Shown here: in pieces, positions 6,904 through 19,398 of the stretch
How positions within the stretch are numbered: position 1 is the first letter of the stretch
Layout: the number at the start of each line of letters is the position of its first letter
Assembly (NCBI GenBank): GCA_951406725.2
Contig: OX597815.1
Coordinates: 61,070,001 to 61,134,000, forward strand
Length of the DNA stretch: 64,000 bases
Direction: 5' to 3'
Origin: Octopus vulgaris
Lineage: Eukaryota
Made by a program: the position numbers and the translations under genes
Notes under the pieces: model-generated
What the model saw: only the letters and a program-made list of their open reading frames with translations
Databases searched by the model: none
What the model was told of the DNA's origin: nothing

Positions 6904-7889
6904 AATGGATGAAATCATTTGTTTACCGTTAACATGGAAGATTCAGTAAACAGTTACCAGGGTAGCAAAATTCACTAAACTAACACGGATGAAGCGACCT
7001 ATTCAAAGGAAGAAACTCCGGGTTAATGTGTAGTAATTTGTGTAGTATAAGTAAATAAATGGAGTTGAACGAAGATGTTATTAAAATTCTTTTACTTTCG
7101 ACATATGTTTCGAAGACAACATTGGTTTTATTCCAAAGGAATAAACGGTGTAGAATTCAATCTTCTCATCAGGAAAGAAAAAGAGCCTATCTCAACAACA
7201 AGACATTATAACAATTACGATGACTGCCTAAATGATAAACAGAACGTTATTAAGTATTTAAAAAATCGTTAGTAGATTTGACGTCAAAGGTAGATACTAG
7301 GAAGAGAAGGATTAAAGAAATAATAAGTAGAGAACTAATAAAGAGGGATACATTGGTCGAAAAAATGTTCAAAGTCTTAGAAGTAGATTTCTCTATTGAA
7401 GTAAGGTGCAAGTTAAACTAACTGTTCAAACTATAAAGTCTGCCGAAATCACTCATATGAGTTAAAGGTATGTTTCTGCCAGTGTTTACATTTGTAAGAT
7501 CGCTCTATATGTGTTAACAAGGTGATTCTTAGAGAAGAGAATATGGAAGAGTTCAGAGTTGCAGATGTTACAAAATCCCTTGGCCTTATCGTAAGGAAAA
7601 AATACGGACAGGATGAACCAATCTAACTTAAAATCTTTATTGCTGTCTTTAAGATGCGAAACCAATTTACTTAGCCCTGTGCTATGGCGTTTTTTGCTAT
7701 CCCTAAATGATGAATAATGATTTGAAATTCTCTTAGATAACTGGGAAGAGGATGCGCCTATGTAGAAGTAGACATTGGTACCGCAAGAAATTTTACATTG
7801 GTATATAGAATTCTTGATCTGAGAATTATTAGACATAAATTTAATTCTGTTGGGGTTGTCCTCAGAGATCAAAACCATGTTTTTATTGC
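6904..7889 (-). mobile_element. PLE 3' portion: GIY-YIG domain (stop at 7486), 3' UTR and hammerhead
   Basis: IYQCKISC...FYIGAS...RISNHYSSFR...STGLSK...CNICNSE; same type of domain as at 42373-42800. Confidence 0.8.
7095..7177 (-). ncRNA. Type I hammerhead ribozyme, intact core
   Basis: CTTTC-CTGATGA-GAAGA...TCTTC-GAAA-CATATG-TC^-GAAAG; stem III is the palindrome ACATATGT. Confidence 0.8.
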
Positions 7890-8058
7890 TATTATTATTA
7901 TTATTATTATTATTATTATTATTATTATTATTATTATTATTATTATTATTATTATTATTATTATTATTATCATTATCATTATTATTATTATTATTATTAT
8001 TATTATTATTATTATTATTATTATCATTATCATTATCATTATTATTATTATTATTATT
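7890..8058. repeat. (ATT)n microsatellite
   Basis: Visible trinucleotide run with ATC interruptions. Confidence 0.95.
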
Positions 8059-8615
8059 GAGTGAGAGAGCAGTGCATGCCAGCAAAGTGACACTGGGGTA
8101 AAATATACGAAGCCCAATATACCCATCATGACTACTCGTCTGATAAAGGTACACCAGGCACATGCATCACAACCATATGTGCGCGACATGGTGATCTCAT
8201 ATCAAGATAAACAGCACATGACCTTGCAGGTGGGGCCCAGTTAGAATTTTCTTCAGGTTGAGTAGCCCATCCCGCTCAAAAGGTCCCTGAATAAGGGTTG
8301 TTTAAGGATGTTGAAAGAACCACCCATGTTTCCAGAGGTGAATTATTCAAACCCCAAAGAATCCCTCTCAACACATGGCTATGATGTTCCCCCACTACTT
8401 CTGCTCGTGATCAGAGATGCACATATCGTCAGCCACTAAGGGACATGCTCAACTGGTTAAGGTCAAACAACTGACAAGCAAATCTGTGGTATTGAGCAGA
8501 ATATTTTCTGTAGCCCATCTTTTATACCAAGACAAAACAATGTACGTGATAACACTTCCAATCAGTTAAGATCAGAAGCCATGAGAGCCACTGCCTGGTA
8601 CTGCATCAGGGCATT
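8059..8615 (-). mobile_element. ~557-bp non-coding element between TAA tracts (Dong 3' UTR extension or a separate TAA-targeted insertion)
   Basis: Sharply bounded by (ATT)n on both sides and adjacent to the Dong 3' end; strand assumed from Dong. Confidence 0.45.
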
Positions 8616-8668
8616 TATTATTATTATTATTATTATTATTATTATTATTATTATTATTATTATTATTA

Positions 8669-18300: not shown

Positions 18301-18818
18301 CGATGGATAATTTCCAGAGGTCTCTCGCCTGGCAGTGCTACCGAGGGGCTCTGCCTGTTCGAGATAAACTCTACCGGCACGGAAGTGCCGTCAGCCGGGC
18401 CTGCCCGAGGTGTTGCCAGGACGACGAAACCGTTCTGCACGCACTCGTCCAGTGCCCGAGTATTGCTGAAATATGGGTTTATGTCGAACAGCTACTGTCA
18501 CGTGTAGGACGGATCCGACTATCGGCCGAATCCATAGTGAAGATTGCCCCGCCGACCTCCTTTAACAAGGAGGGCGAGGCCGTTTTCTTGTGCCTAGTGG
18601 CTGTGGCGAAAGAGGTCGTGTGGTGGACTCGTTTGAAAGGGCTAAAGACAGACACTTTCCTCTTTGGTCAAGGCCTCATCAACTTTTTCAAGTTTCACTT
18701 GAAAAGGAAGATGAGGTTAGAGAGGAAAGTGCTGTCCGATAGCAAGTTTTATGAAAGGTGGGTGAATTGTGCGAGACTGGCCTGTATAAATGGACCAGTT
18801 CTCAGGTTTCGCCTGTGA
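15384..18818 (+). pseudogene. ORF2 APE endonuclease + reverse transcriptase + zinc knuckle; two frameshifts (~16805, ~17240)
   Basis: LNVRGL, SET, GDWN, YLDR, TDH, YWKLN (APE); SPGLDG, FRPITLLN, DQSKAFDRV, RQGCPLS, AYADD (RT); CPRC-x8-H-x4-C. Confidence 0.9.
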
Positions 18819-19092
18819 TTTCAAAAAGGTAATGTAAAGGGAGAAAAAAGGGGACTCTCTACACCCCTTTTTTGACCAGGCTCCCGTTGGCTTTTGTAGG
18901 GTTTTTTCCACCAGGAACCTTTCGAAACGTCTCCCCCTTTTGGGAGTTTTTCATTGTTGAATTTTTTAAATTGTTATAAAGATTTTTACTCGATGTTTTT
19001 CAAAAACGGACAAAACCCTTTGTAACCTTTCGTCCTGTCTTGTCCCTTTATGTAATCATGCGTGTCAGCCCTTGTGGCCAATAAAAAAAGAA

Positions 19093-19398
19093 TTGATTAT
19101 TATTATCATTATCATTATTATTATTATTATTATTATTATTATTATTATTATTATTATTATTATTATTATTATTATTATTATTATTATTGTTAATACTATT
19201 AATATTATTATTATTATTATTAATAATACTGTTATTATTATTATTATTATTATTATTATTAATAATACAGTTATTATTATTATTATTATTATTATCATTA
19301 TTATGTGAGGGGTTGGAATTAACATGATTGATGTTGGAACTCGCAAAAAATGAACTTTTAGTTAGCAGATTGGTATTGTGAGAAGATATAATTTGTTT
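19093..19398 (-). pseudogene. Upstream piece of the interrupted PLE: KQIISSHN motif followed by poly-Asn linker
   Basis: Minus frame KQIISSHNTNLL...NNNN resembles ATIISSFNNRKL in the PLE ORF at 42373-43836; abuts (TA)n. Confidence 0.6.

What the first reader, a model, noticed from the sequence alone, without database searches (positions are those of the whole stretch)
6904..19398. Nested insertions: a PLE's poly-Asn coding linker served as landing pad for Dong and Tx1 elements
Seen: minus-strand KQIISSHN...NNNN at 19398-19093 and NNNN...GIY-YIG at 8058-7486 are in the same order as in the uninterrupted PLE ORF at 42373-43836. They are about 11 kb apart, separated by a Tx1/L1 element, a Dong element and a 557-bp element, all bounded by AAT repeats. 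Known: Dong targets (TAA)n and Tx1 elements are often target-specific. Inference: PLEs with (AAT)n-coded linkers spread target sites for other retrotransposons.
Basis: partly seen in the sequence, partly recalled or inferred. Interest (0 to 1): 0.7.

Follow-up and report, generated by a model that had tools for sequence, protein, structure and literature searches.

The report
Penelope linker collapsed into retrotransposon target
One broken jumping gene here holds three other jumping elements side by side inside an AAT repeat of its own coding sequence; its subfamily, whose spacer likely decayed into that repeat, is often hit there while a sister subfamily with an interrupted spacer is not, but such spacers are only a tiny share of the genome's AAT repeats.

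Summary
Observation confirmed. 6904-19397 is one 5'-truncated Penelope-like (PLE) copy between (TA)n runs. Its in-frame (AAT)n spacer holds a side-by-side stack: Tx1/L1-type (antisense), Dong/R4-type and a 556-bp non-coding element. The landing-pad claim holds: 16 of 39 other copies of this subfamily carry such elements at the spacer, against 0 of 30 copies of a sister subfamily whose spacer is a fixed, interrupted Asn/Ser-rich sequence (Fisher p=2e-5). Nested intermediates link the two; outgroups suggest the interrupted form is older, copy ages argue the other way. 'PLEs spread targets for others' is negligible in scale: 0 of 87 sampled invader copies and 0 of 48 random AAT arrays (about 336,000 genome-wide) lay in a PLE spacer; the invaders mostly stack on other arrays and each other's tails. 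The comparator at 42373-43863 is another family without a poly-Asn run. Dong targeting of (TAA)n and Asn-rich PLE inserts are published; I found no report of this subfamily contrast. The scan noted a Dong stack in another genome (e1-9273424).

The parts
6904..7485 (-). 3' end of the PLE copy (end of ORF and 3' untranslated part); ends at a short (TA)n run at 6893-6903
   Evidence: Matches the 3' end of other family copies; 31 of 48 family 3' ends have (TA)5+ within 45 bp
7486..7889 (-). GIY-YIG endonuclease of the PLE; frame-shifted near its C-terminus in this copy
   Evidence: 39 other copies at 92-97%; open C-terminus in other copies
7890..8058 (-). (AAT)n array, 56 units, in frame as Asn; 3' part of the spacer
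8059..8614 (-). 556-bp non-coding mobile element, no tRNA or Rfam match; sense likely on the minus strand like Dong, likely moved by Dong-type proteins
   Evidence: 39 other full-length copies at 97-99%; AAT arrays at or next to both ends in the 29 fetched; truncated copies keep the 8059 end 22 times against 9
8615..8668 (-). (AAT)n array, 18 units
8669..12929 (-). Dong/R4-type retrotransposon, near full length, two frameshifts; RT, CCHC knuckle, PD-D-K-type endonuclease motif; 5' end carries an A-tract and a 19-bp triple repeat (12860-12936)
   Evidence: 3' end 98-99% identical to 39 other copies
12930..13296 (.). (AAT)n array, 122 units, holding a second copy of the spacer's interruption motif
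13297..19095 (+). Tx1/L1-type retrotransposon, full length, antisense to the PLE; ORF1 13510-15345 with CCHC knuckle, ORF2 15384-18818 in three frames (endonuclease, RT, zinc-binding)
   Evidence: (ATT)n at 29 of 29 other 3' ends and 28 of 29 other 5' ends
19096..19304 (-). (AAT)n array, 70 units, in frame as Asn; 5' part of the spacer with the family's interruption motif
19305..19397 (-). 93-bp remnant of the PLE upstream of the spacer (end of the RT thumb region); 5'-truncation point
   Evidence: 39 other copies at 87-95%; continues into RT in other copies
19398..19429 (.). (TA)16, likely target of the PLE
42373..44138 (-). Comparator: 5'-truncated PLE of a different family, Asn-rich but without a poly-Asn run, Cys-rich linker motif kept

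Best explanation
This is one 5'-truncated Penelope-like copy whose in-frame (AAT)n spacer holds three other elements side by side, likely from independent later insertions by retrotransposons that target AAT repeats. Shown: the spacer belongs to subfamily A, varies in length, stays in frame and is often occupied; sister subfamily B has a fixed interrupted spacer and is not. Inferred: Dong-type proteins nick the repeat and prime reverse transcription there (established for the clade, not tested here), inserting Dong and the 556-bp element on the AAT strand; the Tx1-type element does the same on the ATT strand; each insertion leaves an array on both sides, so the site can be hit again. Inferred, about 70%: the pure repeat arose in lineage A by stepwise loss of interruptions from a B-like spacer while the protein stayed under purifying selection. 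The cost falls on the PLE; the invaders gain almost nothing, since PLE spacers are likely under 1% of the genome's AAT arrays.
For: Flanks co-occur: 29 uninterrupted A spacers of 17-446 bp, 27 in frame, median longest run 17 AAT. Occupancy 16 of 39 A copies anchored on the upstream flank against 0 of 30 B copies anchored the same way, p=2.3e-5; 12 of 32 when only copies with the endonuclease recovered count, p=1.4e-4. RT-anchored set, chosen without regard to the spacer: 3 of 14 A-type against 0 of 17 B-type. Exposure control: Dong-B inserts are a median 98.9% identical to a reference copy, B-type PLEs 96.0% to each other. Independent insertions: PLE copies that share Dong-B are only 91-94% alike. 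Target use at 5' junctions: Tx1 28 of 29. A versus B dN/dS 0.16 over 515 codons, no stop. Direction: lineage C and an Octopus sinensis protein (P0175) fall outside A+B; P0175 aligns without gaps to the B spacer (score 213, best of 2000 shuffles 121); a root at the far A end is rejected (AU p=1e-42); intermediates are nested, not mosaic.
Against: Terminal branches lengthen from B to A (Spearman 0.76), which fits A-to-B better; the outgroup is distant (synonymous sites near saturation). No fully open A-type ORF was found (best: one stop in about 580 codons), so a working poly-Asn protein is inferred. Long runs can grow after insertion (AAT5 to AAT19 in 1 of 19 C copies; one AAT20 in L164), so tract length in the source element is unknown. 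The 30 B copies are the closest to one query and so young. Samples are the 40 best hits per search. 14 endonuclease-side copies showed no upstream flank next to the spacer, so not every Dong-AAT-endonuclease junction is a proven insertion into a whole spacer.
Confidence: 0.8

Rival explanations
1. One reading: PLEs with (AAT)n spacers are a real source of target sites and so help Dong and Tx1 spread.
For: Every A copy that includes the spacer does carry a usable target; 16 of 39 are occupied. Both arms of one inverted pair hold long runs (21 and 18 units, L216), so long runs may be copied.
Against: 0 of 87 invader copies (95% upper bound 3.4%) and 0 of 48 random arrays (6%) in a PLE spacer; about 120 arrays per Mb, 336,000 in all, against first-look candidate counts of 196 to 1500 for the family's flanks (lower bounds); 15 of 29 Tx1 5' ends sit on another Tx1's tail.
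Confidence: 0.07
2. The source elements of A had only short interrupted runs; the long arrays and the vulnerability arose in dead copies by slippage, so no working protein ever had a long poly-Asn tract.
For: All empty A spacers differ in length; 9 of 29 keep a shared interruption motif; single-copy expansions are seen in C346 and L164.
Against: Expansion from AAT5 is rare (1 of 19 in C), whereas 25 of 29 A spacers have runs of 6 or more, so the A source likely had longer runs; both arms of L216 are long.
Confidence: 0.35
3. Escape reading: the lineage ran from A to B, and the spacer gained interruptions because source copies with pure repeats were knocked out by the invaders.
For: Ladder of nested intermediates; B copies are the youngest on it; B is free of inserts.
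Against: Outgroup rooting, 133 against 70 polarised changes, and the B-like spacer in P0175.
Confidence: 0.2
4. The locus is a chance join of two PLE fragments, or a product of unequal exchange between two spacers, which would also explain why the interruption motif stands on both sides of the Tx1.
For: The motif is doubled around the Tx1, and five other full-length Tx1 insertions show no long duplication.
Against: Order, strand and (TA)n at both outer ends fit one copy; the same layout with one or two inserts occurs at 15 other loci; motif doubling without any insert between the copies is seen in L042 and L152.
Confidence: 0.08

Closest known systems
Asn-rich inserts in Adineta vaga Penelope ORFs (PMC3846280, passages read)
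   Same: In-frame Asn-rich spacer between RT and endonuclease; said to arise where short (AAY)n runs exist; one case of a Penelope inserted into such a segment
   Different: Those inserts are 460-554 aa at 25-30% Asn and ascribed to template jumps; here about 80 aa collapsing to a pure (AAT)n array, and the invaders are other clades, counted across copies
Neptune-type PLEs (PMC8557442, passages read)
   Same: C-terminal GIY-YIG with CCHH-type residues, (TA)n insertion bias; nearest database relatives carry the linker zinc finger (28 of 32 parsed)
   Different: Lineages A, B and C lack the linker cysteines and have the Asn-rich spacer instead, yet 31 of 48 3' ends still abut (TA)n, though that motif was proposed to mediate the bias
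Dong / R4 clade (PMC7998251, PMC3812793, PMC3774820, passages read); Dong-R4 listed as recently active in Octopus vulgaris (PMC13282606, parts 1-2 of 3 read)
   Same: RT plus restriction-like endonuclease motif, (TAA)n target, stacking in one array
   Different: Target lies in the coding frame of another transposon, where PMC7998251 describes the (TAA)n target as outside coding sequence; three families 50-61% alike in protein share it
Target-specific Tx1 clade: Tx1 in Tx1D, Tx1-Mar, Kibi (TC)n, Koshi (TTC)n (PMC4494074, passages read)
   Same: APE endonuclease + RT; flanks pass the paper's 20% rule for target specificity
   Different: Target is (ATT)n, not listed in the passages read; the PLE is not a specific target as Tx1D is (0 of 29)

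Membership tests
EN+ Penelope-like element | Single ORF with RT and C-terminal GIY-YIG | tested here: met
   785-codon open frame in B copy L177; RT-spacer-endonuclease in A copies; the window copy keeps only the 3' part
EN+ Penelope-like element | CCHH-type motif in the endonuclease | tested here: met
   CxxC and CxH in family copies; the second is lost by frameshift in the window copy
EN+ Penelope-like element | Pseudo-LTRs, tandem or inverted structures, hammerhead ribozyme | tested here: inconclusive
   Inverted arms at several loci; no Rfam hammerhead in 6000-20500; pLTR not delimited
Neptune clade | CX2-5CxxC zinc finger in the RT-endonuclease linker | tested here: not met
   No cysteines at that place in A, B or C; present in 28 of 32 relatives. 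It looks like a Neptune derivative but is not filed as a member
Neptune clade | RT phylogeny with named Neptune elements | not tested
   No named reference sequences came from any call
R4/Dong clade | RT, CCHC knuckle and C-terminal restriction-like endonuclease in one ORF | tested here: met
   (motif reading is recalled knowledge); a 67% identical whole homologue matches only R2 proteins in the PDB
R4/Dong clade | (TAA)n target | tested here: met
   AAT run after 29 of 29 other 3' ends and before the 5' ends of inserts in spacers
R4/Dong clade | Diverged N-terminal SANT/Myb domain | tested here: inconclusive
   No Pfam hit in 10 homologues at E up to 1; the paper needed profile-profile search, which was not run
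R4/Dong clade | 5' HDV-like ribozyme | tested here: inconclusive
   No Rfam match; no dedicated model built
R4/Dong clade | RT phylogeny with B. mori Dong and R4 | not tested
   Protein search returned no named Dong
Tx1 clade | Two ORFs; ORF2 with APE endonuclease, RT and zinc-binding end | tested here: met
   L1 ORF2 is the best PDB match
Tx1 clade | RT phylogeny separating Tx1 from L1 | not tested
tRNA-derived SINE (556-bp element) | tRNA-related head | tested here: not met
   No ARAGORN or Rfam hit; a much decayed head cannot be excluded

The most novel reading that the evidence does not exclude
Retrotransposons that target microsatellites act as a selective force on the codon make-up of another transposon: a PLE lineage whose coding spacer collapsed into (AAT)n became prey and stopped spreading, while lineages that kept an interrupted spacer stayed untouched and active. 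The genome holds the whole series, so birth of a microsatellite inside a working ORF and its cost can be timed.
Probability: 0.2. Interest if true: 0.7.

Novelty: new variant of a known kind. Interest (0 to 1): 0.45.

Why it matters
The A/B pair is a natural control for target choice: same element, same position, pure against interrupted repeat, 41% against 0% occupancy. It puts the threshold for these invaders above three or four AAT units. The graded series of spacers links Asn-rich PLE inserts, unexplained since 2013, to the life cycle of a microsatellite inside a selected reading frame. The family also keeps its (TA)n bias without the zinc finger proposed to cause it. For annotation, it explains why PLE copies here look fragmented. 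It does not show that PLEs shape where Dong and Tx1 go.

Tried and rejected
Co-mobilisation of Dong fragments by the PLE: not supported, PLE copies sharing an insert type are no more alike than others. Recombinant origin of the A/B intermediates: rejected, diagnostic sites are nested and spread evenly. A-to-I editing as the driver of the A/B difference: not supported, T>C (67) exceeds A>G (32) on the sense strand. 6100-6892 as this PLE's terminal repeat: rejected, it matches no family copy among the fetched loci. Lineage C as a second insertion control: not used, because the query included the spacer and favours uninterrupted copies. A long target-site duplication as a habit of this Tx1: not seen at five other full-length insertions. 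Rfam gave only simple-repeat noise. A search for longer homologues of an A-type protein found none. The Atlas gave no result for either protein, so clade names rest on motifs.

Full report
1. What is there. The region reads, on the minus strand: (TA)16, 93 bp of PLE, an AAT array, a 5.8-kb endonuclease+RT element in antisense, an array, a 4.2-kb RT element, an array, a 556-bp element, an array, then GIY-YIG and the PLE 3' end at a short (TA)n. The two PLE flanks are 11,417 bp apart. The inserts are side by side, not inside each other. The host genome is 2.8 Gb; the nearest named protein relatives come from Octopus sinensis, O. bimaculoides and Argonauta. The comparator ORF at 42373-43863 is another family (34% identity in the endonuclease) with no poly-Asn run.

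2. One copy, and the repeat belongs to the family. The two flanks, searched separately, co-occur at many loci. Among loci examined there are 29 uninterrupted spacers of this type (subfamily A), 17-446 bp long; 27 keep the frame, the median longest run is 17 AAT, and 9 share an interruption motif also seen in the window. In L005 the frame runs from RT through the Asn tract to the endonuclease with one stop in about 580 codons.

3. The spacer is a landing site. Of the 39 other hits to the upstream flank: 20 are uninterrupted; 12 hold Dong-type, Tx1-type or 556-bp elements with the endonuclease recovered beyond (two of these partly deleted); 4 have such an element right after the array but no endonuclease within about 9 kb; 2 have unidentified sequence; 1 breaks off before the array. 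Three Dong-type families, 50-61% alike in protein, take part, in the PLE's sense; the three Tx1 inserts, the window's included, are antisense. PLE copies that share Dong-B are 91-94% alike while Dong-B inserts are a median 98.9% identical to a reference copy, so these are independent later insertions.

4. A natural control. A search with the RT brought up a sister subfamily B whose spacer is a fixed 239-bp Asn/Ser/Gly-rich sequence with at most three or four AAT in a row; one copy has a 785-codon open frame through it. Of 30 B loci anchored upstream of the spacer, 28 are intact and 2 internally deleted; none has an insert (two loci are an identical duplicated pair). 16 of 39 against 0 of 30 gives p=2.3e-5. 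In the RT-anchored 40, 9 break off before the spacer; 3 of 14 A-type and 0 of 17 B-type carry these elements. B copies (96.0% pairwise) are older than the Dong-B wave, so youth alone is unlikely to explain the zero. Against: the 30 are the youngest B copies, and all samples are best hits.

5. The reverse view. For 29 other copies each of the Tx1 3' end, the Dong 3' end and the 556-bp element, every one abuts or nearly abuts an AAT/ATT array, but none lies in a PLE spacer within 1.5 kb (one has a diverged PLE nearby). Tx1 5' ends follow (ATT)n in 28 of 29, and 15 of 29 follow another Tx1's tail. In 40 arbitrary 10-kb stretches there are 48 arrays of six or more units, about 336,000 genome-wide; 25 touch one of the five families, none is a PLE spacer. 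Random arrays include tails made by the invaders, so the comparison is rough, but the spacer is not hit more than other arrays, and PLEs supply a very small share of targets.

6. How the spacer changed. A and B are joined by nested intermediates with graded spacers. dN/dS between them is 0.16 with no stop in 515 codons, so both source lineages made protein. Direction is not settled. For interrupted-to-pure: lineage C attaches on the B side, a root at the far A end is rejected, 133 changes fall on the A branch against 70, and O. sinensis P0175 has a spacer that aligns without gaps to B's while sharing endonuclease residues with C (by eye). For pure-to-interrupted: terminal branches grow from B to A (Spearman 0.76). 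The AU test also rejected B-side monophyly (p=0.0003), and long branches pull. I put about 70% on collapse. B and C have younger copies than A, but most dated inserts postdate A's activity, so a causal cost to the lineage is not shown.

7. Mechanism. Shown: anatomy, target use, strand, independence, the A/B contrast. From established knowledge: target-primed reverse transcription at an endonuclease nick, and Dong's (TAA)n target (PMC7998251, PMC3812793, passages). Inferred: the 556-bp element rides on Dong proteins, since it lies in Dong's orientation and truncated copies keep that 3' end 22 times against 9; it shares no 3' end with the three Dong families seen. The interruption motif stands on both sides of the Tx1: either a duplication of about 150 bp at insertion or earlier slippage, which is seen without an insert in L042 and L152.

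8. What is known. Asn-rich inserts in PLE ORFs and one PLE-into-insert case (PMC3846280, passages); (TA)n bias and the linker zinc finger (PMC8557442, passages); microsatellite- and transposon-targeting Tx1 families (PMC4494074, passages); active Dong-R4, L1-Tx1 and Penelope in O. vulgaris with no word on targets in the two of three parts read (PMC13282606); PMC8967140, PMC9115989 and PMC3774820, passages only. Eight searches showed no report of this spacer contrast or of an (ATT)n-specific Tx1; the library lacks most subscription papers and Repbase, and supplements were not read. The scan's notes held nothing on this sequence and one Dong stack in another genome.

9. Verdict. The added value is the A/B control and the graded spacer series. 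New variant of a known kind; interest 0.45.

Noticed in passing
G000 C50, C47, C1:202.3 Mb, C4:93.8 Mb, C29, C13:65.5 Mb (L305-L330): The Tx1-type family forms head-to-tail tandem arrays, units mostly separated by 5-11 ATT; 15 of 29 5' ends follow another copy's tail.
   Followed up: partly
L151-L190, L231-L260, L331-L350: The PLE lineages A, B and C lack the linker zinc-finger cysteines, yet A and B 3' ends abut (TA)n in 31 of 48 cases, which bears on the proposal that this motif directs (TA)n targeting.
   Followed up: partly
window 12860-12936: The Dong copy's 5' end carries an A-tract and a 19-bp unit repeated three times, not seen at the full-length copy in L153; several 556-bp copies also have tandem repeats of their 5' end. 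Possibly template jumps.
   Followed up: no
window 6074-6894: A separate repeat with inverted arms (6074-6366 and 6520-6813, 92%) and a direct repeat, between (TA)n runs next to the PLE; related sequence in L294.
   Followed up: partly
L341, L343, L344: Lineage C has near-identical copies (terminal branches 0.0006-0.005), so it was active very recently.
   Followed up: no
window 1879-2463 (+): Another 5'-truncated GIY-YIG fragment starting at a (TA)n run.
   Followed up: no
window 22482-23718 and 45463-46731: Two inverted copies (88-93%) of a mariner-like transposase fragment, each split by a simple repeat (family name recalled).
   Followed up: no
window 34610-37170: Near-perfect 533-bp tandem and inverted repeats, 99% identical.
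   Followed up: no
(P0134, P0151, P0175, P0121): Octopus and Argonauta proteins named 'myb-like protein I' or 'GATA zinc finger domain-containing' are fragments of these PLEs, named for their Asn-rich stretches.
   Followed up: partly
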